DNA of 64,000 bases from Rhynchopus sp. YZ270_cl-10 (GCA_964035575.1 OZ037842.1:1302001-1366000), one strand, 5' to 3'. Positions 6,435 to 63,128 are shown, counted from the first letter of the stretch. Made by a program: numbers and translations. The notes: a model not told the origin generated them from the letters alone.

Positions 6435-6437
6435 CAG

Positions 6438-8614: not shown

Positions 8615-8654
8615 CTTTGTTTTGTGTCGTCGTGCATTATCATATTCTAGTCTA

Positions 8655-21312: not shown

Positions 21313-22259
21313 GGACATGAAACGGGAAACCAGGTCCAAACAGGATGCATCGTGCGCTGTCTAGATCATAAAAACAAATATAAAAACAAACTAAAACTGT
21401 GACAAAATATTTTTTTCGAGAAAACAGAGAAGAAAAAAAGCTACTCATAACGAAGACTCATAATGTGGTGGTCAGCACCAGCGTTTTTTATTTTTTTATT
21501 TTTTTGAGGGGGTGACTAAGCAGTGAGGTTTAGACCATCTTACATTTTTTCTTTTTCCATTGTTGCTTTTAGTTCCTCCTCTGAGGGATTGCCTTTTGGG
21601 GCACAACCCTGTCTTTTGACATGGTGATTTTTTTTACAGAAGAGAAGAAAAAAAAACGAAAACGGGGCCGTAATGTTTTATTTCTTTATTGCGACCATAT
21701 TTCGATGATTTATGAACGGGGAGAGGGTTTTTTTTTTTTTCACTAGCTCTCAGTAGCGTCTCACTGGCTCTCACAGCCTGTTATGTCGGAGAGATCATAT
21801 ATTACCCCACCCTTCAAGGTGTTGATGTGAACATTTTACATAGTAACATCCTGTGAGGCCTAGTTCGTTTGCGAAGCTTTTTGTATTTTTTTTGTGGGAG
21901 TTCTCATTTACTGGCTCCTTTTGTCATATTTTTTATTTTTGTTTTCTGGCCTGCTTTTTCCCCCTCCCCTATTTAGGTGACTAAGCACAAGAGATTAGCT
22001 TCATCTTACCAGGTTTAGGTCTATGAGCACGATATGCACATTCATCTTTTCAACTTTTTCTTCCTCTTTGACGTAGGTTCCCTACCCCTTCCACCCTACG
22101 CTCACTTTCTATTGTAAGCAGTGGGGTCGGGAGAAGGGAGCAACGTGCTTTTCAATGGGGTATTAAAGGCGTGCGCGAGAAGCACATTTTTTTTTTCCAA
22201 GTTTTCTTGTTTATTAAAGTGACTGAGCATCTGAGGCTCAGGTTCGTTGTTACATTTTT

Positions 22260-23217
22260 GGGAAAACCTTTATTCGGCTCACAAAAAGTAATTTTTCCAT
22301 CATTCGGCTCACAAAATAAAATTTTTCCATCATTCTATCAAAGTTACTATAATTTTTCCTTCATTCGGCTCACAAAAGTTAATTTTTCCACCATTCTATC
22401 AATATTTTGCCAATTTTTCCATCATTCTATCAAAGTTTTTTTTTTCACTTTTTCGAAGAAATTTTTGCCGCTGGAAAAAAAAAATTGGGTGGTTTTTTGA
22501 GGAAAAATGGGGTCATTTTTTTTGCATTTTTCGAAAAATTTATAGTTCTAGGGTCACAAATTACACACTGTTTGCTAAACATGCAAAGACAAGTGGTCAC
22601 TGGTGCCGAGTTTAACAGCTTGGATGACCTAAAGGAGACGGTAACGTGGCAGTCCTTCATCCTCCACATTTTTCCTTCCGCGTCTCGAACCGCACAGGCA
22701 CCCGAATGACCCTTGTGTGCCGGTTCCTTATGTGCATGGAGGGTGTGTGCGGTGCAAGACGGTGATGGTTGTCGCATCACCCAGCACGAGCGCACCTGCA
22801 CCTCTGACGATCACCCTGTTGCCAACACAGGAATCGTCGGCGCCGTCGCCTCCCGGACCTGCGATAACGTGAGAAGTGTATCAAACTATGGTGCACATAG
22901 TGTGATTGCTGACATGCGTGACCTTCGCCGCAATAAGTCACCTACGAATTTTCCCTCCCACAACCTATAAAAACGGGCAAAAAATCCTACCCAAAAATTT
23001 TTTCCAGCGGAAATATTTCCTCGAAAAAGTGAAAAAAAAAACTTTGATAGAATGATGGAAAAATTGGCAAAATATTGATAGAATGGTGGAAAAATTAACT
23101 TTTGTGAGCCGAATGAAGGAAAAATTATAGTAACTTTGATAGAATGATGGAAAAATTTTATTTTGTGAGCCGAATGATGGAAAAATTACTTTTTGTGAGC
23201 CGAATAAAGGTTTTCCC
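22260..23217. mobile_element. Non-autonomous Mutator-like element, TIRs of about 230 bp, with a transposase N-terminal remnant
   Basis: GGGAAAACCTTTATTCGGCTCAC..GTGAGCCGAATAAAGGTTTTCCC; perfect 9-bp TSD TACATTTTT (22251-22259, 23218-23226); internal GAEFNSLDDLKE and CAWRVCA peptides. Confidence 0.92.
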
Positions 23218-24108
23218 TACATTTTTTGTTGTTATTCCCCATTCCCATTCAGCATGACACCTACCCTAGCTTGTGTGTCGTGTTGGGCTGCAAAACAAAA
23301 AAGTAACAACGTAAAAAAGTAGAGCACATCCTTGGGTTTCTACACTAATGCAACCAAGTTTTCAAAACAATAATTTGAAATTCATTAGCCTTCGGGTGAC
23401 CCTTGTGTACAGAATCCGTCCTCGGACAGGGTGATTGTCGAAGCTAAAAAAAAAGAAGAAAAAAAACGCACACAACTTTGGGATCGGCATTGAGGTAACA
23501 GAACCAAATGGTAGGCGATTGTCGACCCAAAAAAAAAACCCCCACCCAAAGAGGCCTATTTCTAAAATAGGCCTACAAACCTGTTCAGTCGAGAAACCCA
23601 CCCCACACCCTCCCCTACACACGTTGACTACCAACAGCCTGTAGAGCACACCCCTCTCCCCTACCCAGCTTTTCAAGTATTTAAAACAAAACCCAACTCT
23701 TTTTTTTTTCCACGTGAAAATACACCCCCGTTCTTCCCATTTCACTTAACCGCAAAATATTTTGCGGGTCCTCGCCTTTACACACCTTCCCGAACAAAAA
23801 GCTTCAACTCCTGTGCAAAGCTTTTGGGATCTAGAACCCACCCGCACCCGGGCTGGCTACGACCGTCGTTCAATTTTTACGCACCCGCGCTACACCATGC
23901 TCATGCTCGAACACTATGTTATGCGTGCCAAAATTAGTAACACCTGCTGGGAATGACGTCATCCCCCCTTTCTCCTCTCTCTCTTGCTCTCTCCCATATT
24001 TTTTCCAGACGCATTTTGGTTCTTTACACAACTTCCTCCCCCCTTTTTTGTGTTTTTTGATCTTTCCCCAAATTTTCTTGAAAAAACCTTTTCCGTATCA
24101 GTTGCACA

Positions 24109-28816: not shown

Positions 28817-30351
28817 ATGACAGTTGGAACAGTTGTGGACGATGAGGTATGCTGGCCCTTCACCCCTCGCGCGAAGTTCTGTTGTGCTCATGTCCTCATT
28901 AAGTATCACTCCTTCGGGTTGCGGTCTTTGCGAAGGCGTGTGTATCTCAAATAATTCGCTTCATCTTTCAAAAAAACATCTCAACCTTCTTGGGTGACTG
29001 AACATGGCGTAGCAATAACACAAAACGACTGATGAATAAACCAAAGAATAATGTAATCAGACTAAACATGGCGTACCAACATTTCTCTTTTTTTTTGTAA
29101 TTCTATTAGAATCTAAGACCCTACCCACCCCCTTCTGCACAGGAGAGCGTTTACCGCCTCATCCCCGTAGAGGAATCCACAGTCGTGAAGAAGGCGATGT
29201 ACCGTTCCAAGCACAACCACCACGTATGCACACACTAACCCACCCCACGGTCTCAAAATTGACCCTGTTTAGGTGACTAGCCAAGGCTTAGTAGGGGTCG
29301 TCGTACACTTTCTTAAAGGTTCCTAAGTGTAGGTTCATCTGTTTATTTTGTATCAAAACACCTTCGAAAAGGGGTTCACTTCAAACACCCTCCAGGCACC
29401 GCCAAGCTACTCGACCTTCGGCACCACCGGGACAAGCAAACGTGTTGGCAACCCGAGTGGAGGTGACCAAGACTTTGACAGCGGCGGCGGCAAGCACAAG
29501 GCAAAGAAGGCGTTCTCCTCGATAGGCCACAGCGTTGGTGTTGGGGTCACGCCGTCGGGGTTTTTGAAGAAGACAAACCCCTCCCTTCCTGACCCTGCAA
29601 AGTTTTCGCGCAGCGACAATGCGAAGAGGCCGTCTGTTCCGAAATGCACTGACAAGCCTGTCCTGGGTCTGACCACCGACAAAAACTTTGTAGTCTCCAA
29701 CGCAGTAGACACCATCCTCGCACCACCAAAGAACGCAACCCACGAGCAAAAGAACATGACCAGCAAACGCGGCTACGGCAGTGCCCCGAACTACCTGAAG
29801 AAGATCAAAGAGGAGCTGAGCAAAGAGAAGACCATTCAGTCGCAGGCGCAAGAAGCCTCGTCCGCCCCCAAGGACCCACACCTCCGCCTTCTCACAGGGG
29901 AAGAGCGAAAAGCGCTTCTCGCTTCGCTCAAGGCAAAGTGGCACCAGCTGAACCAAAGCTACCAGTCCCTCACCTTCTCCATGGATACTGTGACAAAAGT
30001 AGGTCGCAAGGAGACCCAAGAAACGGAGCTTGACCGTCTTGAGAAAGCCATGAACAAGCTCAGCAGCAAGTATGTGTTTTTTTTAAAGTGTCTTAAGAGC
30101 ACCTTGCAGTGTGTTAGGGTTGTCAAATGAGCGGAGCCCTTGGGTTTTCTTGGGGCGTGTGGGGTGCACGGTTCGCAGGGTTTGTCTGTCCCGCACCTCT
30201 TTCCTTCTTCTTTTATTGTAAAAAAAAAATTGTACCATTTTTGATAACTTCTTACAGACGATGCGTGTTCGTGTATGATGATATATCTGTTGGCTTCGAC
30301 GCCCTCGGCATTGTCGGCTGTGAACCCAGACTTGCAGGGACTTTAAAATAA
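28817..30351 (+). CDS. ENKUR: Enkurin (flagellar); exons 28817-28846, 29143-29223, 29396-30069, 30258-30351
   Basis: ESVYRLIP..YRSKH, KNFVVSNAVDTI, YG.APNYLKKIK, LKAKWHQLNQSYQSL; three GTATG..CAG introns keep frame. Confidence 0.88.
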
Positions 30352-31833: not shown

Positions 31834-33015
<1,182 letters not shown>

Positions 33016-35974
33016 TATTTTCTCTTTTTTTTTGGGGGGCTTTTTTAGCTGTACGGTACAGTTTTTATGTTCAGTGGAAAAAAAGGGTTCTAGCCCAGGG
33101 GGGAATTGTGAGAACCTTTTGTCTTTTTGGAGCATCTTACCAGATTTTAGTGTTCGATAAAACCCACAGAGCATGCTTTGAGACCTAGGAGGTGTTTTTA
33201 TTTTTGATTTTTTTTTTTGCACTATCAACTTTTTAAGGTGACGTAAACGCAGTGAGTAATAAAAGAATGGATCAATCATTTCTGTACGTAGCTTTTCGGG
33301 CGACTTTTTGCGTACAGACCCTCGATTGGACGCATTTTTTAACAAAGGTGGTTATATGTGTGTTTGAAAACAACTGTGGGTTATCCCTTGGATTTGGGAT
33401 ATTGCCCATAGTGTGTGTGGGACTAGGTTGTATTATACGTGATCGGCTCCGACTGAATACCGTATTATACGGTATCATACGGTGGGGGCCGAATACCGTA
33501 TTCTTAATTTTTCGAATTATTCGAATTTTACAAACCTAGTGTGGGGTGGGTACGTTCGCCGCGCATCTTCAAACCTAGCCTGCGGTATTAGTTCGTCTGC
33601 TAAAAAAGGAAACCAGTTTTGACAGGTTGTGTTGACACTAAAAAAACTATGCCCAATTTTTTCTTTTCTTTTAAATCTGACCCGAGAGAACGAATGCCAG
33701 AAACGGTTTCAAAAAAAAACAGGTGGGGGGCGTTAAGGTGACAAATCCATGAGGGCGCAGGTTCATCTTACAAACTATTTTTTTTTTGTACGAACCGGCC
33801 AACCTGGTATCATGATTGACCAAGGTGGTGAATAGGGCTGACCCGCGCTAAATCGGAATGCTAACCAATGTGGGTCGGATCCCAACATTGGTAGTAGGTC
33901 CCATATGGGGATTGCATCGTTGTGTTTATTTTACAAGGTGACTAAGAGAGGCTTAGGTTCATCTTATAATGTTTTTTCAACCCTTTTCAAAAGGCGACTA
34001 AGCAGCGAGTCCTCGGTCTGATAAACACGATATTTTTCTTTATTGAAACGTAAAACACCCTGCGTAATGTGGAAATAATTATACTGAAATATTTAGATCG
34101 GTTTGGTTGCTCCGATTTTTTTGGGGGCCAATTTGGTACTGAACGGTAACATTTTCCAACCATGGTATTTTTTTCTCTTCAGATGTGTGTGTACGAGAGA
34201 CACGTTCATCTTTCAAGTTTTCTTTTTTGGGGGGAGGTGTCCGATGTTGTGGTGCGTGCTGTCAGGTGTCCATTGGGGTATCTGCCACGTTCATCAAATC
34301 ATACCACCTTTCCCCCACCCCTTCAGTTGCACAAAGGAGCTTTGCCGACCCTTTGTTTAGCTAAGGTGGCTAGGCTCGCCAGGCTTAGGTTCATATTGAC
34401 ATTACCCCCCCATTTTGCAGTATCTGCAAAATATTGAATGTGCTTGTTCGTTAATGGGGTGTTTGCGCACAAAAAAGTAAAAAAAGTAAAAAAAAATGAA
34501 GACTGTCTGAATGATGGTTCACACTAACAGATTATCAAAAAAACGCTTCTGAGTGTTCCGTATGTTTTTTTTAAAGGTCTTCACTTTAGAGGGGGGGTTT
34601 GGGTGGGAGGGGGGGAAAATCCAAAGGAAAACTAATCATCGCACACCGCCAGCAGTTTATAGGAGTGCAACCCCCTAATGCGCAAAAATACTTTTTTGTT
34701 TAAGAAGTTGACAACGTGTAGAGGTTCAATCAAACCACCTGTGTGAACTCCACGCTGTTCGTTAGTTCCTAGCCCTTTTTTGGGTACAATTTGAGTGCAA
34801 AACCCACCTCTTTTAAAAGAGATTGTCGATGCTTGTCTTTGTGTTGCACTATCAAAAGGCAGACTGCTGAGGGATACGTATCCGCTCGAGACCCGAAGTC
34901 TGTTGTCACTTCAACGCTCTTCATGGTTTCATTCAGTGTGCCGCTGTTTTGTAGCTCCGTTTATTGATCAGCACTAAGTCATAATTCGAGAATATGCATT
35001 TTTTTCTCACCATTTTCCAACTTTGTCTCTCAAAATAGGGCAGCACTGTGGGGGGTGGCAAAGTCATCTTCGTATAAACTCGGGGGTGCGATGCGTTACA
35101 AAAGGAAGTCATCTGGCTTTCGAAACAAAAGAAAGGCTATTTAAAGCTAAGAGTGAACCGGGGGAGGGATGGAAGGAAAAACATGACAAAAAAAATGCAA
35201 AAAAAAAAAAACAAATAAGATACATAGTACAAAAGGCTTCGGGCCAACATTGACCCTAGTTACCTCCCCAAGGGGTGCTTCGGCCATTTGTCGACACTAA
35301 ACAAAAAGGCTGACAGAAAACCCACAGGGGAATTGCTGATTCAAATATAAAAAAAAAGGCCCCCTTCCCCAAGGACATCACCATTTATAATTTCCCCCTG
35401 ATTTGCTATACTTTTTTCACCCTTTTTTTTGCTGATAAATTAAGTGGGAATTCCAACGGAGATAAAGTCTTTAAAAAAGAAAGCGGATTTTGTTTTTTTT
35501 TTCACTCCCTCCCCCCATTCACATTTTGCATTTAACAGATTGGGGGGAGTATGTTTATTGAAAGCCCTGATGTGAAGGTAGTTCTCGCAGGGGTAGTACT
35601 GCTTGCTTGTGCGCAGGCGTCTGGCAGATGTATACGCGGAAAAGACACGACAGCACGATTTCAGGAAAACTTTGTCCCCGTGGAGCAGCTCTCTCGGCAT
35701 GACGCAGCAGCAGCAGCACTCAACGACGCTTTTCTTGGCGCTGTTCTCGACCACTCACTTGTCCCAGGGTGAGCCTTTCGACCCCCACACCCCACCATTT
35801 ACACCCTCCCTCTAACCCATATAACCTAAAAGAAAAGACATCATTTCCCTCTCAATAATCCCCTTATTTACCGAAGTGGAAGCGGGGGTGATCTGGCCAC
35901 TCGAGAGGGTTTTGCATTTCAAGTTTCCCTCCCAACCCCAGCCCCTCGTATCCCCCCCATTTTTTTACAGACGT

Positions 35975-36007
<33 letters not shown>

Positions 36008-36017
36008 TTTTCTGAAT

Positions 36018-37634: not shown

Positions 37635-38240
37635 CAATGGTCTGAGAAGGATTGCACAAAAAAGATGTATTGCAAATGAAGTGTCCGGGTTGTGTGAGGT
37701 AGTGGTGAGGAGTGGTTGCATGTTCCACGAGAGCTCTGTTCGTATTATGAATGTCGGAGCAGCTTGTGTATCGAATTATTCGAGTTAGGGAAAGAAGGCG
37801 TGTGATAATTTTTCTCCTTTTTCTCTCCCCCATAAGAAGTTCCGTTCCGTTTATTTGAGTCTAGAAAAGGGGGGGAAAAAACTCCCTTTTTTTTTTTTTG
37901 TACAATCGTTGTAAAAACGAGGTGTTCAAGCTGGGCGTTTGGGGAAGGGGGGGATGACAAGAAACGTGTTGCGGGTTTAACAACTTGGCAACAGTGTTTT
38001 TTTTTTTTTCCCTCACCCCTCATCCGTCTTTCTGTTGGAGTGGAGTCTTGTCCTTTGCAATTTACCCTCTCCCTTTTTAGGTTGTTTTTTATGTTTTGAG
38101 TCCAAAAAATATGTAAAGATCGCGCAACTAATTGTTGTTCTAAAGTGTTCTAAAAAAAAATACGAAACAACACAACGTGTGGGATCAAATGCATTTTTAT
38201 CTTGGTGACTAAGCATGGGAGGCTTTGAGAGGCTTAGGTT

Positions 38241-39204
38241 CGGGGTGGCATCAAAACAAAAAACGCGGACAATGTCCGCGTTTTTGGGGGGGGAGGGGGG
38301 GGGTCTGAAATTCCAGAAAACGCGGACATTTTGGGGTTTTTTTTTCCTGGAAATTTTTTTTCTTTGCCGGGGTTGTACACGATTTTGACCAAAATTTATA
38401 AAAACTCGTCCATTTCGGCAAATTGACCCCACCACAGAACCGGCGGATTCAGGAAATGCAAATGCCGGTGTTTTCGGGCAAAATAAAAAATACAAGATGC
38501 CCGCGTTTTTTTTTTGCAAAATGTACACGCATGGGGGGCCCTAAAACCCCTGCTACCACGTGTTTCTACAGGCAAACACTTGGACCCATTGACCTTACAC
38601 GACGGGTTTTGACCAAAATCAAGAACTTGCCCATTTTGGCAAATTGACCCCACCACAGAAAGGACGGATTCCGGAAATGCAAATGCCGGTGTTTTTGCGC
38701 ATTTTCATGGTTTCAGCATCAGAGAGAGAAAATCTGCGTTGTGGGATTTACCTTGGCCCCTTTACCTTACACTCATTTTGACCAAAACCAAGAACTTGGC
38801 CATTTCGGCAAATTGACCCCACCACAGCGCGGACAGATTCCGGAAATGCCAATTGCGGCATGTTTTGGGGCTGAAAAATTTTCACCAGAAAATTTTTTTC
38901 AGCAGCATTTTTTGGCCGAAAATGGGCCCCACGTATTAGTGACCGGGCTCATATTTTCAAAAATTTAAGTGGTCAAAAAATTGTCCAATTTTCGAGATTG
39001 ACCCCACCACTTTCTGGACGGATTCCGGAAATGCCAAAAAACTGTGTTTTGGGTCACGAATTTGCACCCCGTCACCCAAAAACCAGCAAAAAATAGGGGG
39101 AAAAAAAACCAAAAATGTCCGCGTTTTGGGGGGGGGGAGGGGGGGGTCTGAAATTCCCCAAAAACGCGGACATTGTCCGCGTTTTTTGTTTTGATGCCAC
39201 CCCA
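38241..39204. mobile_element. TIR element of about 960 bp with four internal tandem units of about 200 bp
   Basis: GGGGTGGCATCAAAACAAAAAACGCGGACAATGTCCGCGTTTTTGG at 38242 and its reverse complement ending at 39203; units carry AATTGACCCCACCAC..GGATTCCGGAAATGC. TSD ambiguous. Confidence 0.88.
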
Positions 39205-39280
39205 TTCATCTCCCAAACTTTTCTTTGGTCGTCAGTGCCTGCGTCCCAGAGGCGTTTGCACGATCAACTTCTCTTTCTTG

Positions 39281-39321
<41 letters not shown>

Positions 39322-42900: not shown

Positions 42901-45900
42901 ATTTTTCTCGCAGGAGCGATTTGGTCTTGGTGGGCATCTTAGCTTTCCCATTTTTAAAGGGACAATAGCCTTGAGACTAAGACTCCAGGACACATATTAA
43001 ATTGTTTGCAATGCACGTTTTGCTATCTCTTTGTACTACTCTAGTCTTTGTGTAGGTGTTTCAATACAATGGACAATGGATGATTAAACTGGTTTTAATC
43101 ATTGCTTGGACGGCGAACTACTAAGTCCAGAAAATTCAGTATGTTTTTCACTTTTCTATTTTTTACTTTTATTTTATTTCTCTTTCTTGTGTGTTTGCTG
43201 AGGTTTTCTATCTGATACACAGACAGGATGTGTTGGTATTTGTTTGGATTGGTAGCAATTATTGCACGGAATACTTTACGTATACACGGCAGCCATCAAG
43301 ACCAAGACTCTTTAGGTTACTCTTCCTCCTGGTGATCAGACATTACATCCAGTAAGGACAGAGAAAGGAATAAGAAAAAAGAAAAAAAAAACTTTTGTAT
43401 TTTGTGTATTCCCGAAACAAAAAACTGAAGTAGAAGGTACCAAATGTTCACACGAACATCGGTTTCACGATATTCACCCACCATTTAAAGGGAAATCACT
43501 GAAGATGTCCACCCTTTTGAATACAACTGTATGATTCTTAGGACTGAAACAGGGTTAATATCAGAAACCAATCTACTGAAGTTTCAACTTGTGCACGAAG
43601 CATTTTACTTTTCTTTTCTACGTTTTGCAAAACACACAACATAAAAAGAAAGATGGGACCATTTTTGTTGATCCCTCACCATATACTATCAATTTATTGA
43701 TTGCATATGATGAAAATATTTTTTTGTGTTCCCGCAAGCAGGGCGTTCGCTATCGCCATCGTTTTTTCCTGATCGTGGCGAAATGCCAAAAAACCCGAAA
43801 TTTTTGCTTTTTTACTAGTGCTTAAAATAGGTCAAAAAAAATTTTCCGCCGGAGAGAAGCTAGTTCGTGGGGGGTGAATCCCTGGTACTGAGTGGTCAAA
43901 AAAAATTTGCGATTTGCGCGTGATCCCTTCCCCAGCACAAGTGCTATTACAGCTGCACTTTCCTGACTAAAACCAGCAAAACGATGGAGAATTTCATCAA
44001 TCCCCCCTCACTGAGGGTCTCTTTGTGTTGTTTAATCAAACAGATGTACAAGAGAGAGGCATCCGTCATATGAGACTTCATCCTTATTTTGATTATTTTC
44101 AATAAACTAAAACGTCTCTCTGCCGTTGAAGGTAGAGTTGACACGAGTAGTGACACCTTCTATAACAGGGGCTTCACCAGACTGCAGGATTGAGGAGCGG
44201 GAGTGCTGGGGAAACTTCCTCTCACGGCAGGCGGGTTTGCGGAACAGTGGACACCCCTCTGCGACCCCCCCTCCGGGGGGTCGACAGGGTGGTGGGGAGA
44301 AATCTCTCTCTCTTTATTTTTTTTTCTCCCCTTTTTTTATTTATTTATTTATTTATTTATTTATACAGGGTTTCGCCCCGGTGGGGCGAAGCCCTGGGGC
44401 GAAATAAAATGTCATTTTTTCAGGAAAAATTTTTTTTAACGAAAAAAAATATTTTTCGCCCCGGGGCGAACGCCCTGCCCGCAAGATACAACAGAGAAAG
44501 GCATATCTATCTTGACACTTTCCTTCAATACTAGCGGGGTTCAAAATATTGGTGGAAATGTGCAATGCACATTTTTTTTAGTTGTCTTTTTTTAGACAGC
44601 ACCCATATTTTGAGTAGTTGTTCATCTGACCATGTATCCAATAAACAGGCGGAGGCTCAGAAAAAGTGGGATGAGGAGACCAAAGAGGAGACCGACACTG
44701 CGCGTGCCGAGATCATGAAAGAGAAGAATGCTGCCTTCGAGGCTGAGTGGAAGGTAAAGTGGGATGCAGTGCTCGCAGCACGCCCCGCAGAGGTGAAGCC
44801 GGAGCGCGTCCTCGACAAGAAGCTTGCGATGTACATCTCCTACCTCTCCCAGCCAATCCAGGTATGGAAACCACAGGTCGCAATCTCGCCATTTTTAACC
44901 AATGCCTGCGTCCGCCGATGAACGGTGAGGCGTTTGCACTTTCGACTTCTCTTTTTAATATTTTGTTCTGTTTTTGAACTTTTGTATTTTGTATTTTGTA
45001 TTTTGTGTATTCCCTAAACCAAAAAACTGAAGTAAAAGGTACCAAATGTTCACACGAATATCGGTTTCACATTCACCCATATCAAGGGAAATCACTGAAG
45101 ATGTCCACCCTTTTGAATACAACTGTATGATTCTTAGGACTGTAATGTCACAATGTTGAACCCTTCCCACACAGATCCCCAAAACCGAAATCGGTGAAAT
45201 CAGCGTTGCCAGAGCTATTCAGTCCACAGGCGCCTTCTCGCGGGAGTATGTATTTTTTTTAAAGGTGACTGATCACGAGAGGCTTTAGGTTCATCTTGTA
45301 AAACTTTTCATATTTTTGCACTAACGTACAGTCACAAGAGGGTTTTGTTTGAAAGGCGACTAGCAGAGGAGAGGCTTAGATTCATCTAAATAGACCATTC
45401 TTTGTTTGTTGCACTCATTTGCCCTGCTTGTACCAATAAAAACTAAACCACAAAACCCACAGCGAAATTGAGTACCTCCTCAGCTCGATGGACAGAACCG
45501 GAGGCACCCTGAGCTACGGCAAGTTGTATGTCACCGCATCCCACATCCTCCTCCTTCCTCCCCCTATCCCTTCACCCTTTTTTAGTCAGTACCTCCGTCC
45601 CCCAGAGGTGTTTGCGCTATCAACCTCACTTTTTTTATTCAAAAGCAGTACCTACCAGTACCCTTTTTAGACTTACCCCCAAAGCTTATCGTTATCCCTC
45701 TCCTAATTCGGATCAATATAAACACGAGGAATAAATTGATCCCTGATATCACCTTTTGAGAATAGTGTCCAACTTCCCCTTTATTATGTTATGTACACAG
45801 TTCAACTTCTTTATCAATCATTTTTTTTCTCTCAAAGGTTGCAGGTGCTCCCCGAGAACAAGCTTCCTGAGGAGGAGTGGGTTGTGCGCAAGGTTCTGCC

Positions 45901-46447: not shown

Positions 46448-47297
46448 GCCTTTCGTGCCATTTTTCTGATCAAAAAAAAAAGGGGGGGTGGGGAAGGGAG
46501 ATGCGGTGAAGGCAAATAAAAGCAAAAAAAAGGAAAGGAAAAAAAAGGAGATAAAACAGAAGAGGGGAATGTGAGGATGGGGTTTGGTGTAGCACATTTT
46601 TTTAAAAAATAAACGCCAAAAGAAGGTTGGTAAACCTTCTGCACAGCGAATAACAATTTTTTTTTATTCCCCCCCCTCCCTCGCTCCCCCCGGGATGGGA
46701 TACCCCCCATTTTTTTTTCGATATTTTTCTTCTTTTAGGCCCCCCTCAGAGTGGATATTTTGTGGGAAAATAACTTAAGAACGTGTAACAAGGCACAAAA
46801 AAGGTTCCTCTCATCCCTTCCAAGATGAGTGTTGTCTCTCGAGACATATTCACCCCCTCTTTTTGAGCAGGTTCAACCTTTCAACTAAGAGATCTCGTAT
46901 CGAAAAAATAAAGAAAAAGATCCTTTCGCGTTTTTTGGATTGTTCAATTCTTTTCAATCCGGTAAATTCGAGCCATAGGAATTTAATTTGCTTTTGGTTG
47001 GAGTGGGTGAACTGCAGTCCTCTACCAACCTTACCCACCCCCAAAACCACTCCTTGTTAAACAGCAACGACCGTTTTTTTTTTATATATTTTTTATAAAA
47101 AAAGTGCACACAAATTCTTTTTTATCAGATGTAAACCACGAAAAATAGATGATTTTGGGTCCCGGTACAGCTGGTACAGTACTAAAGGTACTGTTGAGAG
47201 CTTTGCATTTCAACTTTTTATTCCTCAAACAACAATACCCCAATCCACTATAAAGTACACCAAATAGGGACACACAAATAATCGAACCCCCATTAAA

Positions 47298-48957
47298 ATG
47301 AGCGAGGAGGCTGAGATGGAAATAGAGGCTCTAGAAGCCATCTACGGAGATGAGCTGCAGGTGTTGGAGGCTGGCAAGCGGATATCAGTGCAGGTTGTGG
47401 ATCCAAACGATGACGACCTTGACACAGCAAGTATGCATTTTTTTTCAATTTAATTCTGACAGTACCTTCAATGTGAAAGAGGCCCCCTCAGCTCCAGGTG
47501 GTGGTGCGGCACGTGAAGAACTGCCTGCGGGTGTAGCCCGGTTTTGGCGTCGGTTTTACCCTGAGCAAGGGTCGTCACAGCCTCGGTGCAGAATTTCGTT
47601 TCGCAGAGGACGGCGCACGCGATGTTCTCCTTGCGGTCGCATCACCGCTTCACCCTTCGCGACGTTTGACCACGTCTGTCCACATCCCGTTCTTGCAGCG
47701 CGCTGTACCTTTGTGCTGTTTGCTGCCAAGGTAGTAGGATAACTGAGGGGCTTTTGTCCTCACCCCTCCGATGCGCAAGATCGTTTTCAGTCGACACATT
47801 TTTTTTTTCACTTCCACTTCTTTCAACGCTGATAGGTACTTCATCTGTACCGTTTGCCCTCTCATTTGGGAGCTGTGTATATGGTACCAATTGTGTGTCA
47901 CGGTTGACTGTAGGAGACGGTGGTGAATTAGATTTCAAAGTTTCTTTTGTTTATGAAGTCAGATTCATTTTCTTTTTTTTCCCGCTTTCAAAAAACACGC
48001 AAATACAGTGCGAATTGAAATGAAAATGGAGTTTACAGAGAACTACCCAGAGGAGGTGCCTATCATCTCTGTGCGAGGCATGAAGCAGTTGACCCGTGCA
48101 CAGGTGGACCCTCTTCACCACCTTCTGAAGGAGAAGGGCGAGGAGCTTCTTGGGCAGCAGATGGTCTACGAGCTGGCGACGTACCTGCAGGAGTGGATGG
48201 CGAATGGTGCGGAGGACCCGAACAAGAAGGAGGGCGGGTTTGAAGGGCAGAAGATGGTCATCGAGAACAACGTTAAGCACGGCACACCAGTTAGCAGGGA
48301 AAATTTTGCGTCGTGGCTGGAGGGTATGTTCCTTTTTCACCCCTTTTTTACACTTTTTTTTGGTCACAACTTACAACGATTCATCACCCAATCCATTCAT
48401 CTGGCGAGGTGCACATTCATCTACACACCCCACCACAGTCTACGAAGCTGACCGTGCAAAAACACTCCGTGTTAAACTCATCAAAGTCGACGATAAGGGT
48501 GAGGTCAAGCTGTCGGGACGCCAAATATTTGATAAAGCAATCAACACTGTTGACTGGGACCTGTTCAAGGGTATGTCTTTTTCCTCTCTTTTTTCTGATA
48601 TCAAAAAGATCGGGTCTTTTGTTTGTGCGCTCAAAGCCGGGGGACTAAAATTGCAACGTAAGAAAACTTGCCCGTTTTTTTTTCTTCAAAAAAAGGTCTC
48701 ATCTATTCTTCTATCACCTACCTTTTAATTAAGGTGATTAAGCACGAGAGGCTTAGGTTCATCTTATAAACTTTTCTTTAATTCCCCCAGTTAAGCCCTT
48801 CCCTACCAATCCTTATTCAACCCCATTAAAACCCCATTTTTTGCAAACACCCATTTTGCTTTCAGATGGAGAGGTGGCTGATGAAGATATCCCTGATTTT
48901 GGTGATGACGACGACGACGATGTCGATGTCGACGACGAAGAAACCGAGGAGAGCTGA
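47298..48957 (+). CDS. RWDD1: RWD domain protein RWDD1/Gir2 (DFRP2); exons 47298-47430, 48009-48323, 48439-48570, 48866-48957
   Basis: EIEALEAIY, YPEEVP, LGQQMVYEL, GTPVSRENF..W, KLSGRQIF, acidic tail; introns keep frame. Confidence 0.88.
48733..48776 (+). other. Type example of the recurrent sense-strand stem-loop motif GGTGA-CTAAGC-ACGAGAG-GCTTAG-GT-TCATCT
   Basis: About 30 variants across introns and intergenic regions (see findings). Confidence 0.75.
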
Positions 48958-49515
48958 ACGTGTCGTGGGGTGTGGGTTGGGAGGGGGGCGGGGCAGGCGG
49001 GGGGGAGGGTGGATGGGCGTTTATATTTTTAGAGTCGTTAAGCCACCCACCAGATCAACGAACATCACTGTGGGAACGGGAGGTTTTTTTGGTGACTAAG
49101 CACAAATCTTAGGTTCATCTTATAAACCTTTCTTTTTTTTTTTTTACCCGTTTTGAAAATGCATAGTGCAAACCAGAGGGAAAGCATATTTGTCGGTAGT
49201 AACAAAATGCCATATAATGGACCAAAAAAAAAGGAACCACCACCCCCAATTTTTTTCCCAACCGGGCCCTACATCACACATGATTCATCCCTGATGTTCG
49301 CATGATGGTCAAGCCCCGGTACAGCCGGTCATACCAAGGTACACTGTCCACGAGAGGGCTGTTGTATTTCAAGCCAACCTTTTTTAAAACCAAGGGTAGT
49401 CATGAAAACAGGGAACGCCTCGGAGAGGGGGTATGCATCTCATGACCACATCACTCTTACAGCCACTTCCTCCTCCTCCTCCCTTTTCACACCCCCGCAC
49501 TTTCATTTCAGCACA

Positions 49516-49869: not shown

Positions 49870-51734
49870 TTCTGTTTTGAAGCTATTTAGAAGCAGGGTT
49901 GAAAAACAAAAACAAAAAAAAAAGGGGTGTCTTTTTCAAACGCCCTGTGATGCATCTTTCTTCTAGTTTTTTCCCCCCTCCCAGAATTTTCAGAAGAAGA
50001 GGGCTTAGATTTAAGAACCTTATACGCAGGGCAAGACTGCATGCTGAAAATCAAAAGTTTTTTTTTGGGGGGGTCCACAACTAAAAACCAGGAACAATTT
50101 TGTTCTTCCAACTCTAATCTGTGCACAACGAAGACTGGGGCGGGGGGTGGGGTGGACAGGTTGTGCTTCTGAAAGATTTTTTTCTTCTTTCTTTTTCGCA
50201 CGATTTGACCTCCCCCCCCCCACCTTTTCTTAGTGCATTCCCCTCTAGGTTTGCTTTTTTCAAAAGACGACTAAATGCTTAAGGCATCGTACCAACCTTT
50301 CTTTTTTATGATATGTGCACGAGAGGCACATTCATCTTTTCGCATTTTTTATTTTACTTTTTTACAGCAAATCGAGAGGGGGCTTTCCCTCTTTTCTCTA
50401 TCTGTGTGTTTGCATCCGTTTAGTCCAGGACAAAAAAATATAGAACATAGCTCTCTGGGTTTTTAGCATTTTTTTCTTTTTTTTCCCCCCCTCATTTCCT
50501 CCCAAATATAGAGTTACATCCAACAGTCCATGGGAGCCTGAAATTATTCAGGGTTGAATCTTAATATTCCTTCTCATGAATCTTGGATGGGTGTGTACGT
50601 GGCAAGAACACAATGACCATGTGTCCCGGGTAACATTGATAAATAATATGCTTTTTCCACCTTATTTTGGCCTGATAGCAACTTCCGTCAAAACAACGCC
50701 CAACACCGCCAAAAATTAGGTGATTTTGTATCATGCTCGAGCATGTTACCGTTTAGCATATGATGTATCAAGGAAAATAATATGATACCCAGGTTCACGT
50801 GGTCACGTGTGTGGGGAGGGGGAGGGGGTGGTAGCTTCGTTCGCCCACAGCAGACGAGAGCCTTTGAATCTTTCCGATATGTGTGTGCGCGTTTGAGGCA
50901 CATTCATCTGTTCATCTGTTTTCTTTTTGTAAACTGTGAGCGTTGTTTCTTATTCGTTTTTTCTTTCTCTTCTCTCGTTGGCTGGGTTAGGAAGGTGGCA
51001 AAAAGTAAAAATAAAACAACACAATGATTTGTGTAAAAAATGGAGCATGTGGCAGCACAAACCACACCCCTTCAGGCCTAATTACTGTCTCAACCCCCGT
51101 TCATCTGACCGATGAGTAGAAGCGGGTGGAGGGCATGTCAAATGTAGGTCACGAAATGGACAGCATAGTTGCCACCCCTTGTTCTGATCACGCACGTAGT
51201 AGCAAAAAAATCTGCGAAAGCGGATATATTCTGCTGCTTTAACGTGATATTTCCACGCTTTCAAACAAAATAAATAAACTGAACAGAGTGACCTGTATTT
51301 AAAAACCAACCACAGGATTGTTTTGGTTTTCAGTGCGTCTTAGTTCGCTCATTGCTCAGAAAGAACCCCTTTGGTGGGAGTTCCGTTCCCTTCCTTTTTT
51401 CCCACACTGGAAACTACGTACGTGAAAGACTTAGCATCATCTTACCAACTTTTCTCTGATGACTAAGCACGAGGCTTAGGTTCATCCTTACCAAAAAAAA
51501 CACTCTTTTCTTTTCTGGACAAAAAAAAAAAGCAAAACAAAATAGACCCTAGGTTCCCCAAGCGGGTCCTTAGGCGATTGTCGAAAAAATAACTCTCTCA
51601 AACCCCCCATTTATTACAAAAAACCTCCCCACCCTCCCCCCTCCCCCCTCCCCACACATTCCAACAGAAAATGTAACACACTCTCATCTCTCTCTCTCTC
51701 TCTTTTTTGAGGTCCCTTTTTTTTCCTTTTCAAG

Positions 51735-56408: not shown

Positions 56409-56854
56409 TGCTGTTTGGGGCTTGCGAATAGAGTGAACAGGAGCGTGCTGCATGGTTGTACCCTCTTCTGCCTGCGTGGCTAACAGAGGAATGCGTACAG
56501 CTTGAGGGCCTGTTGTGTTATTGACTAAGGTGACCAAGCATGAGAGGCATCATCAACGGCATTGAGCTAAAAGATGTGGGCTTTGTTTCCAGTCATTTTT
56601 TGTGTTTTTAAGTTCTCTTTTTAACCTGTTCGCCATGGCAATTGCCCCTTTCTTCTACCCTGTTCATACCCTCTCAGAGGTGCTTTCGCACGCTAGAGGG
56701 GGTTTGTGCTACTAAACAGCTGACGTTTTAAAAACAAAAACGATAGCAACACCTTTGACCTTCATCTTGTTGCCTCAACTCCCATCTCCCAATCAATATG
56801 ACGTCAACAGAATTCAACCTTTATTTAACCTCGCAAACACCAAAGACAATGACG

Positions 56855-57616: not shown

Positions 57617-58579
57617 AGTAAGATACCGTGAACCGTGATATATAACTATTCCTCTCCTCCCTTCCACTTCCACTTCCTTTTTCCTCTCGCTCCACACCCT
57701 TTTTGTTGTTTCATGTGTTGTGTCCTGAAGGACACAGCAGCGTGAGAACTTAGCTCTTTTTTTTTAACCATAACAACATTACCACTCTCAGACTCTACAC
57801 TGCTCTGGCACTGCAGGCATGTTGCACATGAAAACGCAGCGTGTCTGAGTTGCTCTTGCTGTGTTTTGTGGTGGAAATGCTGGACACACGATACCATCAA
57901 GAATCGTGTGTTTCCCAGACACAGATATCACTGCACCAGGTGTTTTTGTCAAGGAAGCATCTTCTGCAGATATTCCTCCCTCCATTTTTGTACAGATGAA
58001 CGTGCCGTGATGCACAGGTCATCTTTCAATCTTTTCTTTTTACCATCTTGCTGGATGCGATTCTTGCACCAGCCTTACTGATCCATGTTTTGCGAATACT
58101 GTATTTCAGTAGTTTTTCGCTGAGCAATTTTATATTGTGTCGGTATGCGCCATGTGTGGCTCGTCCATCTTTGCCAAGCATTAACTTTTTAGATATGTGC
58201 CTACGAGGCACGTTCATCTTTCAAGTTTTCTTCTTTTTACCCAACGTTACGCACGCCCACGTGAAAGAGTCTTGTACCCTTGCATGAAACACATTGGTGA
58301 TACCCTGTGTTAGAAGGGTTTCGGTTCTTTTGCACGGCTGCATCTCTTTTGTTGTGCCGCGAAAGCATGTTCCGACCAATTGTGGCATTGTTTGAACAAC
58401 TGTTGTTGGTGGTGTGCCCATAGAGGTGCTGTGCTACCTTCACCTGCATGTTTACATTCATTTGCTGCAGCTCGTATCTCATCTGCTGCCGAGAAATGCA
58501 TTGTGCTGTGGCGCAGTGTGGGATACATCAGAGCAGGGCGCTGATTGGTTTGTGGTTCTTTTTTTTTTGTGACAACTGC

Positions 58580-59320: not shown

Positions 59321-60645
59321 ATGGGAAATACACAAAGTGGGAGAATATCCCACGATAATGTACAAATCAGCCAGACTTTATGGAGCAAGGCGTGCGAGGT
59401 AACACCGACACAAGAGCAGGCACATATCAAGGACATTCTTGGGAATGATGTGGTTGATGAAAACGAGGCCTTGTTTGAGGAGCTTGCGACGCTGCTTGAT
59501 ATTTTGGAGGGTTACAGCGAAGCAACGTGCATCATATCACGTAAACGCGATGAAGCACGACGCAAACTAGTCGGACAACAGAAACTGCAACTCGAGGACC
59601 AAATCCGCGGCATGCTTGAGAAGGTGAACAGCTTCAACGGCCTCACCTCTGCTTCCTCTCGTGTTGCGGCTTCACTCACCTCCTCCTTACATTCGCACGC
59701 TACCTCCAATTCCTCTGGGTCACTGAACACCACAATATCGTCTCAATCTCACATTCTTCGGGACCTATCTGAATACCGTCCATTTCTTTCTGCAAAGAGC
59801 ATTGAGGCGATGGCACAGCTTGACACTGTTGCTGATGAAATGCGTGGCATGTTGGCAGAAGAGACGTTTCGGTTGACAGCGGATATCGAATGGGTGCGCG
59901 CAGAGATCAACCAGGAGATGGACAGAAGGCACCGTGTCGTGCACCGTGAGGACTCATCTGTGACGGATTTGATGTCGTTGAAGCAGGAGCTCGAGGTAAC
60001 TGGTGATCGTGACCATTGGTCGAACCGCCTTCGTCGTGCAGACTCCTCACGCAGACGCACCCTCGATGATGCCGACTCATTTGATCCTTTGCAGCTTAAG
60101 GCGGTCGGTTCGGGAGGGCTAGCAGGTGTCTTTGCTGCAGCAGCTGCACGTGGCATGGTGTCGCCGTCCAGTAAGGACGGTGACGGTAGGTTCAATGCGG
60201 AAGCAGGAGATGGTGATGGTGGCAGTGGCAGTGGGAGCGGCAGCGGTCCTATCCCAGAAGAGCAGCGCGCAGAGGCCGCACGCGACTGGCTAGCATTGAC
60301 TACAGCATTAGGGGATGAAGGAGACGACGAAACAGGGGTCGCGATATGTGTATGTCATATGATATGTCCCCTTTTTTTCGGGATCAGATGTTAAACCACG
60401 AAATGGATGTAGGACTAAGAAGCGTGATTGGGGTCCACCCAGGTGCACCGGTCATGCACCAAGGTGGCTTTGTATTTCAAGTCAAAAATTTTTTTTTTTG
60501 AAATGTGTGTAGGAAAGCACATCCAACAACTTTCTTTTCATTTTCATTTTCTGCACCACAGCTTCTAGAACAGCAACCACGAAAACGAGGTCAGACCCCA
60601 AACGACCGCTTTGATCTCGGACTTGACAGCGATCTCAGCGAATAA
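59321..60645 (+). CDS. CCDC24-like coiled-coil protein; exons 59321-60349, 60562-60645
   Basis: LW..V...E...IK.ILG..VVD and LDTVADEMRGMLAEE..L..DI patterns recall CCDC24; MGNTQS possible myristoylation site; phase-0 intron. Confidence 0.65.
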
Positions 60646-61178
60646 CCCATTTGAACGAAGCAACAAAATAAAAACAACTACCTTTGTAACCGGTGTCCTA
60701 AGAAAACCCGTCTTTTATTGAGATTGAGATTTGTTGAGATGTGCCCCGTGTCTCGGGGTTGCAGTTTATAAATCATGAGAAAAATGGGGGGTTTTTTGAC
60801 GTAGTTTGCTTATGATGCTGTGAATACAGAGAAAGAGCCCACGCCTGGCTTTTCTTGTGTGTGCATGAGGCACATTCACTTTACAAGGTTTCTTTTCTTT
60901 TCTAGCCTCCAAACGCACGGGAGGAACTGTGGTGAGATACCACGCACCCCCCCACGCCCCGCCCTGTTTCTCCCACCCCCCCCCCAGCACCCATTCGGAA
61001 AATCTGTTTTGCATCCCCTCTCCCTCCTACTTTCTGTTCCCCATATTTTTCTCCCCAACATAGTGTTTTTACAAGCACATGTAAAGAAAAATGTACCTTT
61101 AAAAAACTGAAAATTTTTATCGTTTTTCTTTGAATCGTGTGATCGGCCCCTACCTACTCTATCCACCCCTCGAAAGGA

Positions 61179-62285
61179 ATGGAAATAAACGGAATTCTGC
61201 AGCAGTCCGGGAAACAATGTGTCGTTGGCGTAGCGGTGGATGACACGATAGGGCAGGTCAAGCAGAAGCTCTGCGAACAGCTCATTGGTTTGCATGGGAG
61301 CAGCACCCTGCAGTCGCGTATGGGGCTATGCCTGCAGGGAAGCGACAGTGTGCTGGATGAGTCTGAATTCGTCTCCGATGTGGACCTAGAGTGCGGTGGC
61401 GACGTAGAGGTGGTGACCATCGCACCGCAGATCTGCCCCACCCGCTATGTGTCGGACACTCAGGTCACCCGAATCTGTCTTTCAACGTGCGGGGCGTTTT
61501 GTGTTATTGCAGAGATGAAAGGTATTCTCACCGTTTGGAGCACCGAAACTGGTCAAAAAATCCGCGAAATCAGCAACGACACTGACGCGACGTATGGCAT
61601 TGCGGTGTCTGCCGGTGCATCGCGTGTGGTCTCCGGAAACTTCAACGCAACGATCTGCGTCTGGGACGTTGAGACGGCAGATATCGAACACATCCTGACT
61701 GGCCACGACCTCACCGTCTTGAGTCTTGCTGTGTCGCACTGTGGCGACCGCCTGGTATCAACCTCTCTCGACAAATCGATACGCACCTGGCGTCTCTCTG
61801 ACGGCACAGCACTGGGCCTCATGGAAGACTCAGACAGCTACGCCACCTGCGTCACACTGTGCGACACGCTTGTCGTCAGCGGTACCTACGACAGCACGGT
61901 GCGGGTGTGGTGTTTTGACACTCTCAAATGCCTTCGGGTCCTTGTCGGCCACACTGCGCCAGTCAAGGATGTGGCAGTGACCGACTGCCAACGCTACGCA
62001 GTGTCCGTCAGCTCTGATAAAACTACTCGGGTCTGGTCGCTTCATACAGGTGAACAGCAGCACACCTTCAGCACAACGTTCATCCCAAGGGCGGTGTGTG
62101 TTGGCGGCGGAAAAGCTGCGGTAATAAGCGGCGACAGCATCATTGTGTGGGACGTAGAGTCCGGGGAACGGCACGACACTGTGGTAGAAGGGGCTCGTGG
62201 CCAATGTCTGCAGCTCTCAATATGCGGGAAGTGGACGTTCCGTGCGCGAGGGTTTGTCACTTTGGTTGCCCCTTTGCAACATTAG
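61179..62285 (+). CDS. Ubiquitin-like N-terminal domain + WD40 repeat protein
   Basis: SGKQCVVGVAVDDTIGQVKQKL ubiquitin-like pattern; GH..WD repeats. Confidence 0.87.
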   Translation: MEINGILQQSGKQCVVGVAVDDTIGQVKQKLCEQLIGLHGSSTLQSRMGLCLQGSDSVLDESEFVSDVDLECGGDVEVVTIAPQICPTRYVSDTQVTRICLSTCGAFCVIAEMKGILTVWSTETGQKIREISNDTDATYGIAVSAGASRVVSGNFNATICVWDVETADIEHILTGHDLTVLSLAVSHCGDRLVSTSLDKSIRTWRLSDGTALGLMEDSDSYATCVTLCDTLVVSGTYDSTVRVWCFDTLKCLRVLVGHTAPVKDVAVTDCQRYAVSVSSDKTTRVWSLHTGEQQHTFSTTFIPRAVCVGGGKAAVISGDSIIVWDVESGERHDTVVEGARGQCLQLSICGKWTFRARGFVTLVAPLQH

Positions 62286-63128
62286 CGCCAGTCATTGGTA
62301 TTGTTGTACAGGTGAAACCACGCCCAACTTCCTGAATGTTGTAATAGAATTTGGTGGCGTTCGTGCAAGTCTTGTGGGATCACTGTGTAATGAAGCGATT
62401 TGTTCGATAGAGGTGGTAATAATGTTTCAAAAAGTAAATAAGGTAGGGTCCAGAGCGTGCACGTTTCTGTGTTTGTCTGTATAATCCGGTGGTTTTTTGT
62501 CAAAAAACAATACAAAAAGTGTGCCATATATTTCAGTTTTGGGGTGTTTCGGACATTCCCTTAGAGGGTGTTGTGTTTCCCTTTCCCTTTCCCTTTCCGT
62601 TCAATTTTTGATTCAGGACAGCGTTTTCCTGATTGTTTCATTATAATTGTGTCTAGGGACAGATTCGTCAGATTCGTCGTTCCAATTTTCTGAATATTTT
62701 GCTTTCGCCTTTCAAACATTTTTGTTTTCAAAGTCAAGTTCCCTCGACTTTTTTTCCCCTTTGATGTCTGCGTCCCAGAGTCGTTTGCATCAGCTTCACT
62801 TAAGACAAAGGCTTAGCCACAGTAGACAAGGGTAAGCCTCTGCAAAAAGCACCACCCTTTTCAAGGTGATACAAAACACGAGGTTCTTACAAACTTTTCA
62901 TTCACAACGCCTGCACCCCAGGGGCGTTTTGCACTTGGACAACCTCATTTTCGTTTCCCACAGCAGTGAGGGAAAATATAACTTCAAACACGACAACCCA
63001 TATACATGATTTATAATACCTTCTCCTTTCCATGCACCACGACCCTCCTCCACCTGCCTCTCTCTACACCCATATATGCATACATCTTCAGTGGCACCCC
63101 CACCCCCACCCAACACCCGCCCCCTTTA

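What the first reader, a model, noticed from the sequence alone, without database searches (positions are those of the whole stretch)
21511..62950. Covarying sense-strand stem-loop in most introns and intergenic regions
Seen: about 30 variants, on + wherever unambiguous, of lower stem / upper stem / loop ending in GAG / 2-nt 3' bulge / TTCAAS, TAAAC or TCGAC / U-tract. Stems differ but pairing is kept: CTAAGC-GCTTAG (38204, 51461; TTAAGC at 48733), CTGAGC-GCTCAG (22219, compensatory), CTAGGC-GCTTAG (34365, G.U), CTAAGC-GTTTAG (21511), ATGTGC-GCACAT (50310), ATGTGC-GCACGT (58192), GTGTGT-ACACGT (34182), GCGTC-GGCGT (32675, 39241, 44908). Some loops contain an inserted hairpin (44908, about 35875). 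Intronic copies occur in enkurin (29272), Rab6 (32675), CCAR1-like (44908, 45264, 45355, 45594), RWDD1 (about 48405, 48733) and CCDC24-like (60385). None was noticed in coding exons. Inference: strand bias, G.U pairs and covariation indicate an RNA-level element, possibly a lineage-specific structured signal for cis- and trans-splicing (the following TCAAC/TAAAC plus U-tract resembles a branch point) rather than a MITE.
Basis: partly seen in the sequence, partly recalled or inferred. Interest (0 to 1): 0.78.

Follow-up and report, generated by a model that had tools for sequence, protein, structure and literature searches.

The report
Tiny sense-strand hairpin retroposons
The introns and gene spacers of a marine protist carry dozens of copies of a tiny hairpin repeat, all facing the direction of transcription and often flanked by short duplications, which likely makes it a minimal jumping element copied through RNA rather than a splicing signal.

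Summary
The element is real. In this diplonemid window, 31 copies above noise (45-115 nt, five sequence families) lie on the + strand, which is the gene strand; none is antisense and none is in coding DNA. It behaves as a mobile repeat, not a splicing signal. One subfamily has hundreds of different flanks with sharp ends in read contigs. Nine of 28 copies have 7-13-nt direct repeats abutting their ends (2 expected). Copy number follows region length. Eight of 16 introns and 5 of 15 spacers have no detected copy. The supposed branch point lies 66-226 nt from the acceptor, usually with AGs between. Later insertions split two copies. Covariation within family A is at shuffle level; stems differ mainly between families. 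Best reading: promoter-less, U-tailed SINE-like retroposons made only of a LINE-type 3' hairpin and tail, likely copied by the genome's intact LINEs, one of whose 3' tails looks similar (weak evidence). The complete sense bias (P about 1e-7 given T-tract supply) is unexplained and seen in one gene cluster only. New variant of a known kind; interest 0.45.

The parts
48731..48776 (+). Family A type copy in RWD-gene intron 3: lower stem AAGGTGA/TCATCTT, upper stem, loop ending GAG, 2-nt 3' bulge, tail ending TTTTC; 7-nt direct repeat on both sides
   Evidence: 57.4 bits; z -2.68; ends match loose ends
21506..21551 (+). Family A copy, intergenic
21971..22017 (+). Family A copy, followed by a decayed family B copy at about 22028-22058
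22213..22259 (+). Family A copy with one compensatory pair; a TIR element has inserted in its tail
29270..29345 (+). Family A copy in enkurin intron 2, split by a roughly 40-nt insertion between upper and lower 3' stems
   Evidence: (E 0.75)
32663..32714 (+). Family C copy in intron 2 of the Rab-type GTPase gene; 7-nt direct repeat
33732..33779 (+). Family A copy, upper stem decayed
33932..33975 (+). Family A copy, followed head-to-tail by a decayed A copy at about 33991-34030
34177..34222 (+). Family B copy
34360..34408 (+). Family A copy
35864..35930 (+). Family E copy (D-like 3' end, inner hairpin)
38202..39222 (+). Family A copy split by a 962-bp TIR element (38242-39203); lower stem and tail lie at 39204-39222
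39229..39272 (+). Family C copy directly after the split A copy
39793..39907 (+). Family D long copy; 13-nt T-rich direct repeat
44896..44950 (+). Family C copy with inner hairpin, intronic; 7-nt direct repeat
   Evidence: 5' end matches loose ends
45259..45307 (+). Family A copy, intronic, 17 nt after the donor
45350..45399 (+). Family A copy, same intron; 8-nt direct repeat
45583..45628 (+). Family C copy, intronic; 7-nt direct repeat
47122..47221 (+). Family D copy, intergenic; 7-nt direct repeat
48405..48425 (+). 3' half of a family B copy in RWD-gene intron 2
   Evidence: no model hit
49086..49131 (+). Family A copy
49284..49380 (+). Family D copy lacking the 5' end
50305..50348 (+). Family B copy after a decayed copy at 50261-50300; 7-nt direct repeat
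50875..50920 (+). Family B copy
51135..51213 (+). Decayed family D copy, not in the training set
   Evidence: (E 0.047)
51453..51495 (+). Family A copy; same site also present in the related organism's contig
   Evidence: record 6
56524..56609 (+). Decayed family A copy
   Evidence: E 0.61
57990..58035 (+). Family B-like copy
58187..58230 (+). Family B copy
60381..60488 (+). Family D copy in the CCDC24-gene intron
60849..60892 (+). Family B copy
62643..62690 (+). Decayed copy, not in the training set
   Evidence: 24.5 bits
62758..62798 (+). Family C copy
62860..62949 (+). Decayed A copy followed by a family C copy (62906-62944)
14668..14784 (+).
17924..17994 (+).
2077..8864 (-). Intact two-ORF LINE (APE endonuclease, RT, RNase H) with poly(A); candidate mobiliser. 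Its 3' tail (about 2165-2225) is a hairpin followed by a similar tail and U-tract

Best explanation
These are copies of a small interspersed repeat superfamily, 45-115 nt long, that likely spreads as non-autonomous retroposons copied by LINE reverse transcriptase. Shown: sharp ends, high copy number, several families sharing one architecture (pyrimidine run and AG at the 5' foot, bulged hairpin, CAA/AAAC tail, U-rich end), T-starting direct repeats at many copies, decay, nested insertions, and sense-only orientation in this cluster. Inferred: sense copies are transcribed passively inside polycistronic pre-mRNA (no promoter of their own); a LINE RT would recognise the hairpin as it recognises its own 3' tail, prime on the U-tract against an A-run at a nicked target strand, and copy to the hairpin foot, leaving a T-starting duplication. 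Selection on structure would act on the master copies during spread, which gives stems that differ between families but decay within them. The sense-only orientation is not explained by T-tract supply and likely reflects insertion coupled to transcription or replication, or loss of antisense copies; this step is untested.
For: Contigs of three DNA-like runs break off at the same ends: 132-186 different left flanks at 48731 and 242-343 right flanks at 48779, and 103-125 left flanks at 44903, all T-rich. Head-to-tail A-A, A-B, A-D and C-A joints occur elsewhere in the genome. Anchored direct repeats of >=7 nt: 9 of 28 copies against 2.07 in permutations (0 of 50,000 reached 9) and 3.3% of 1,908 T-rich control sites (P 1.8e-7); 7 of the 9 start with T, as for T-tailed SINEs (PMC6007223). 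Count per spacer follows length (Spearman 0.82, n=15). 27 of 50 departures from family consensus break a pair. Two D copies lack the 5' end but keep the 3' end. An intact LINE is in the window; its protein cluster has 30 members and related LINE clusters share contig lengths with it. Its tail folds (z -2.70) and matches the family C tail at 10 of 12 bases just after the stem. L1Tc shows about tenfold sense bias in T. cruzi polycistrons (PMC5814959).
Against: 19 of 28 copies lack a >=7-nt anchored repeat and 8 have none of 3 nt or more; I set most element ends by hand after seeing the flanks. No empty site was seen: copy 51461 is also present in the related organism's contig. The LINE-tail link is weak: model R1 does not score it, it ranks only in the top 2.6% of 734 control windows, and the 12-base pattern was written after seeing both. 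The LINE ends in poly(A), the elements do not. No Pol III head and no mechanism for a precise 5' end is shown. Family D folds no better than shuffles (z 0.23, 1.10, -0.08). A bias of 29 of 29 is stronger than the trypanosomatid precedents.
Confidence: 0.62

Rival explanations
1. A host-encoded structured signal for cis- and trans-splicing: the hairpin positions a branch point (TCAAC/TAAAC) ahead of a pyrimidine tract.
For: Sense-only and non-coding only. A pyrimidine run plus AG sits at the foot and is paired in the lower stem. TCAAC/CTAAA-like words occur near real acceptors, and diplonemid branch points are poorly defined (PMC12621601). Three D/E copies are the last copy before a likely trans-acceptor (sequence).
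Against: No detected copy in 8 of 16 introns and 5 of 15 spacers. Tail-to-acceptor distance 66-226 nt with 2-11 AGs between in 6 of 7 intronic copies. The only scored copy in enkurin intron 2 is split. No within-family covariation. Direct repeats at the ends.
Confidence: 0.08
2. A retroposon by origin that the host has since co-opted in part, as with Leishmania SIDERs: sense copies supply pyrimidine tracts, mask a cryptic AG or bind a protein, so antisense copies are purged.
For: Complete strand bias beyond target supply (P about 1e-7); high density; SIDER precedent of sense enrichment in 3' UTRs (PMC2689281); the element occurs in many contigs of the probably-RNA run X1.
Against: Resident copies decay: G.U against A.C single departures 15:10, P 0.21. 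No fixed position. No functional data.
Confidence: 0.12
3. A mini element moved as single-stranded DNA by an HUH enzyme (Helitron2/Helentron-, Replitron- or IS605/REP-like), inserting into the exposed sense strand.
For: HUH elements insert in fixed orientation at their targets, carry hairpins, and HLE2 insert in TT (PMC10288648; PMC11417382). The TCAA after the hairpin recalls the IS608 right-end cleavage site (recalled, no call). Helitron ORFs exist in D. papillatum (PMC10161547).
Against: Direct repeats are enriched, whereas Helitrons make none. No 5' TC or 3' CTRR ends and no 11-17-nt TIR pair. The foot AG is not inside the duplications, unlike Replitron-1's RG target. DNA folding is weak and nearly strand-neutral. 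No HUH gene seen in the window's ORFs scanned (18 proteins).
Confidence: 0.1
4. A MITE or non-TIR Mutator-like DNA transposon whose short TIR is the lower stem.
For: 7-8-nt direct repeats and true TIR elements with a 9-bp duplication in the same window.
Against: The right-hand repeat starts 9-20 nt after the stem, so the stem is not terminal; the two ends are not inverted repeats of each other; such elements would not be expected to be strand-specific.
Confidence: 0.06

Closest known systems
T-tailed SINEs with a LINE-type 3' hairpin (plant Au-like SINEs, Sauria SINE, AFROSINE; PMC6007223, abstract and passages)
   Same: 3'-terminal hairpin with compensatory changes between families, T-rich tail, duplications that start with T.
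   Different: No tRNA-, 5S- or 7SL-derived head; 45-115 nt in all; the T-stretch ten bases upstream of the duplication was not evident by eye; sense-only orientation.
Stringent LINE/SINE pairs sharing a 3' stem-loop (PMC3747384, passages)
   Same: Variable stem sequence with conserved loop or flank bases; a LINE in the window ends in a similar hairpin and tail.
   Different: Sequence sharing with the one LINE available is marginal; the LINE has poly(A).
Trypanosomatid SIDER, RIME and NARTc retroposons (PMC2689281, PMC5814959, passages)
   Same: Euglenozoan, non-coding, sense-enriched within polycistronic clusters, partner LINE has APE-RT-RNase H.
   Different: Those carry a 77-79-nt 5' promoter/ribozyme signature and are several times longer; sense bias there is 4- to 10-fold and reverses in spacers; here copies also fill introns.
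Entamoeba EhSINE1 (PMC2996970, passages)
   Same: Protist SINE with T-rich flanks on both sides and duplications that shorten with age.
   Different: 450-680 bp with internal repeats.
Euglenid and hemistasiid non-canonical structured introns (PMC12621601, parts 1-2 of 8 and passages)
   Same: RNA structure in euglenozoan introns, possible transposon origin.
   Different: There pairing joins the intron ends; here the hairpin is internal to ordinary GT-AG introns and also intergenic.

Membership tests
SINE (non-autonomous non-LTR retroposon) | Interspersed, high copy number, defined ends | tested here: met
   Hundreds of different flanks at fixed ends; 31 copies in 64 kb.
SINE (non-autonomous non-LTR retroposon) | Target-site duplications of variable length | tested here: met
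   9 of 28 with 7-13 nt against 2.07 expected and 3.3% of control sites; T-rich, hand-set ends.
SINE (non-autonomous non-LTR retroposon) | Pol III promoter head derived from tRNA, 5S or 7SL | tested here: not met
   No tRNA gene, no Rfam match on any copy; families A-C are only about 45 nt.
SINE (non-autonomous non-LTR retroposon) | Simple-sequence 3' tail | tested here: met
   U-rich TTTTC/TTCTC end, T-run consensus behind 48779; not poly(A).
SINE (non-autonomous non-LTR retroposon) | 3' end shared with a partner LINE | tested here: inconclusive
   Only one LINE tail available: 10 of 12 match, top 2.6% of control windows, no model hit.
SINE (non-autonomous non-LTR retroposon) | Empty sites or observed retrotransposition | not testable with these tools
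   No genome held; one site checked in a relative is filled.
MITE | Terminal inverted repeats abutting the duplication on both sides | tested here: not met
   The tail extends beyond the stem before the right-hand repeat.
Helitron-like elements (HLE1/HLE2) | No target duplication; TC...CTRR ends or 11-17-nt TIRs plus separate 3' hairpin | tested here: not met
   Direct repeats enriched; ends do not fit; criteria from PMC11417382.
Spliceosomal branch point / acceptor signal | Present in essentially every intron at a short distance from the first downstream AG | tested here: not met
   6-8 of 16 introns; 66-226 nt; intervening AGs in 6 of 7.
Spliceosomal branch point / acceptor signal | Lariat branching at the motif | not testable with these tools
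   No raw RNA reads were listed.
Conserved structured RNA family | Covariation above a shuffled null | tested here: not met
   Family A, 12 copies: 256/500 shuffles reach the score. Between-family covariation could not be scored because families align in different registers.
SIDER/RIME/NARTc | 77-79-nt 5' signature shared with the partner LINE | tested here: not met
   The window self-comparison links the LINE 5' end only to 58581-58799, not to the hairpin copies.

The most novel reading that the evidence does not exclude
A superfamily of promoter-less retroposons reduced to a 45-nt LINE-type hairpin and U-tail that live entirely off polycistronic transcription: released from introns and spacers, copied by resident LINEs, and inserted only in the sense direction genome-wide, so densely that they now shape the pyrimidine tracts and masked AGs that the host spliceosome reads.
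Probability: 0.22. Interest if true: 0.7.

Novelty: new variant of a known kind. Interest (0 to 1): 0.45.

Why it matters
If right, this is an unusually small retroposon with no promoter, showing that polycistronic transcription can replace the Pol III head of a SINE. Its strict orientation would give a direct handle on how insertion is coupled to transcription or replication in Euglenozoa. In practice it warns that sense-biased, structured intron motifs in diplonemid genomes can be repeats rather than splicing signals, and copies this short are easily missed by repeat annotation. I found no description of it in eight literature searches; the main supplement of the D. papillatum genome paper, which covers repeats, could not be read.

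Tried and rejected
No genome is held for this window, so all genome-wide claims rest on read contigs. No RNA holder on record was listed; X1 is only guessed to be RNA, though one contig skips intron 46170-46388. Rfam: no hit on any copy, so hammerhead, snoRNA, Y-RNA-like and IRE ideas (recalled resemblances) have no support. A loose structure-only descriptor was unspecific: 21 hits on +, 7 on -, 3-12 in 15 shuffles, and it missed most copies. Pattern scans found nothing in metagenome contigs or prokaryote genomes; two viral-contig hits lack the 5' arm and are chance. LINE relatives from metagenomes were only 22-30% identical and served only as a negative control. One search had wrong offsets for four copies and was replaced, which counts 19 ungapped copies of families A-C and leaves out gapped or decayed copies and families D/E. 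Pair counts on the mixed B+C alignment were dropped because the registers differ. Read depth over the element (87,000-194,000 per bin against about 100 single-copy) was not turned into a copy number because overlapping contigs inflate it. Transcript mapping for 19.9-39.3 kb was not obtained, so spliced-leader sites, UTR ends and empty sites in the relative remain open there. Earlier-findings look-ups returned nothing. The bioRxiv preprint 10.64898/2026.10.18.760011 (abstract and outline only) and PMC11613528 (passages) did not bear on the element.
Full report
Context. The window comes from a diplonemid: its enkurin is 53% identical to Diplonema papillatum DIPPA_21809 and lies on a 2.27-Mb contig. 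From 9.2 kb on, the host genes lie on the + strand with GTATG...AG introns, in line with co-transcribed clusters in D. papillatum (PMC10161547, passages) and the GTATG donor of Diplonemidae (PMC12621601, parts 1-2). Spliced models of the Rab-type GTPase and RWD genes give clean reading frames, and a contig of run X1 skips intron 46170-46388. The other intron models rest on donor and acceptor motifs and partial homology.

Observation. The quoted copies are there. They fall into families: A (GGTGACTAAGC...GCTTAGGTTCATCT), B (GATRTGTGC...GCACRTTCATCT), C (TGCCTGCGTC...GGCGTTTGCAC), the long D (AGATGTAAACCACGAAA...GGCTTTGTATTTCAA) and one E copy. All share a pyrimidine run and AG at the 5' foot, a lower stem, a 2-nt 3' bulge (a 2x2 loop in C), an upper stem, a loop ending in GAG, a CAA/AAAC/CGAC tail and a U-rich end. 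Model R1 gave 33 of 35 hits on + and model R2 13 of 15; the four minus hits score 7-11 bits, under the 18.1-bit background seen for R1 in 345 kb of unrelated DNA. Of 31 copies above noise, none is in coding DNA. T-runs make up only 56-58% of T-plus-A runs on + outside the elements, so 29 of 29 sense copies in the 19.9-64 kb cluster has P about 1e-7 from target supply alone. This is one cluster; whether orientation flips with gene direction is untested.

Not a general splicing signal. Six of 16 introns hold an intact copy, two a broken one, eight none; nine of 15 spacers hold an intact copy, one a decayed one, five none; counts follow spacer length (Spearman 0.82, P 2e-4). Intronic tails lie 66-226 nt before the acceptor with 2-11 AGs between in 6 of 7 cases. 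Copy 29272, the only scored copy in its intron, is split by a roughly 40-nt insertion; copy 38204 is split by a 962-bp TIR element; a third TIR element sits in the tail of copy 22219. In family A, 81.7% of cells pair but covariation equals the shuffled value. Over 19 ungapped A-C copies, 161 of 188 cells pair; of 50 departures from family consensus 23 keep the pair (6 by double change) and 27 break it; G.U against A.C is 15:10. The fold is therefore mostly inherited from family founders, and the striking stem differences are between families.

A mobile repeat. Contigs from three DNA-like runs match the 48731-48779 copy and break off at the same ends with 132-186 left and 242-343 right flanks; family C has 103-125 left flanks ending in a T-run plus CAG; head-to-tail joints between families occur elsewhere in the genome. 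Direct repeats of 7-13 nt abut the left end and reappear just after the tail in 9 of 28 copies, against 2.07 in permutations and 3.3% of T-rich control sites; an unanchored test agrees (P 0.004; control). Nineteen copies lack such a repeat, as expected for old copies but also a limit on the evidence, and I set most ends by hand. Seven of the nine repeats start with T, the pattern reported for T-tailed SINEs, where the first base of the duplication matches the tail (PMC6007223, abstract and passages). The stem is not terminal, so this is not a MITE, and duplications argue against Helitron-like elements (PMC11417382, passages); Replitron-1 makes duplications that include its RG target (PMC10288648, passages), which is not seen here.

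Likely mechanism. The window holds an intact LINE with APE endonuclease, RT and RNase H; its cluster has 30 members and three related LINE clusters share contig lengths with it or each other, so RT is likely available. Its 3' end is a hairpin (z -2.70) followed by a tail matching family C at 10 of 12 bases, the only three matches to that pattern in the window (0.20 expected), then a U-tract and poly(A). This link is weak: post hoc, top 2.6% of 734 windows, no model hit. 3' stem-loops with variable stems are typical of stringent LINE/SINE pairs (PMC3747384, passages). I infer that sense copies are carried in polycistronic pre-mRNA, recognised by the hairpin, primed at the U-tract and copied to the foot. 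The sense strand folds better as RNA (19 of 26, mean 1.9 kcal/mol) than the antisense, with little difference as DNA, which fits an RNA intermediate; family D does not fold better than shuffles. Sense bias has precedent: about fourfold for SIDERs (PMC2689281, passages) and tenfold for L1Tc (PMC5814959, passages). The complete bias here, and how the precise 5' end arises, remain unexplained.

Comparison and verdict. It works like a T-tailed SINE but fails the Pol III-head test, so I do not file it as a classical SINE; it also lacks the 5' signature of SIDER/RIME/NARTc. Flanks resemble those of Entamoeba EhSINE1 (PMC2996970, passages). That it is shorter than described SINEs is from recall. Eight searches found no description; the unreadable main supplement of PMC10161547 may list related repeats. 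Verdict: real, new variant of a known kind. Retroposon 0.62, co-opted retroposon 0.12, HUH element 0.10, host splicing signal 0.08, MITE-like 0.06. Interest 0.45.

Noticed in passing
window 2077-8864 (-): Intact two-ORF LINE with APE endonuclease, RT and RNase H and a poly(A) tail; several full-length near-identical members and related families exist.
   Followed up: partly
window 58581-58799 (+) and 8654-8864 (-): The first 220 nt of the LINE recur alone in sense orientation between genes (88% identical), fold into a long hairpin and sit under high read depth; possibly a RIME/SIDER-like 5'-signature repeat.
   Followed up: partly
window 22260-23217: TIR element with 221-bp inverted ends and a 9-bp duplication, Mutator-like by that length.
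   Followed up: partly
window 38242-39203 and 15665-17897: Further TIR elements (48-bp and about 260-bp inverted ends); the first has internal repeats also found at 1885-1962.
   Followed up: no
window 41517-42037 and 43204-43724: 521-bp direct duplication (99.8%) inside a 3.16-kb intron, with a fragment again at 44994-45145 under very high depth.
   Followed up: no
window 12059-14645, 16481-17203, 18342-19693: A 1.2-kb repeat with palindromic ends present in both orientations, showing that other repeats here are not strand-fixed.
   Followed up: no
window 29292-29332, 31592, 46230, 51545: Short TAGG...CCTA palindromic sequences, one of which splits a hairpin copy; perhaps another tiny mobile family.
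   Followed up: no
window 44-400, 1083-1860, 12550-13290: Long tandem arrays of GTACT-like units flanking the LINE-rich region.
   Followed up: no
window 9239-11812 and 30965-31438 (+): Repeat-domain, probably surface protein gene interrupted by one stop near 9851, with a short paralogue; no Pfam hit.
   Followed up: no
window 30235-30250, 32305-32320, 45428-45440: A TTGTACCA word recurs near the 3' end of three introns; remnant of the repeat tail or a separate splicing motif.
   Followed up: no
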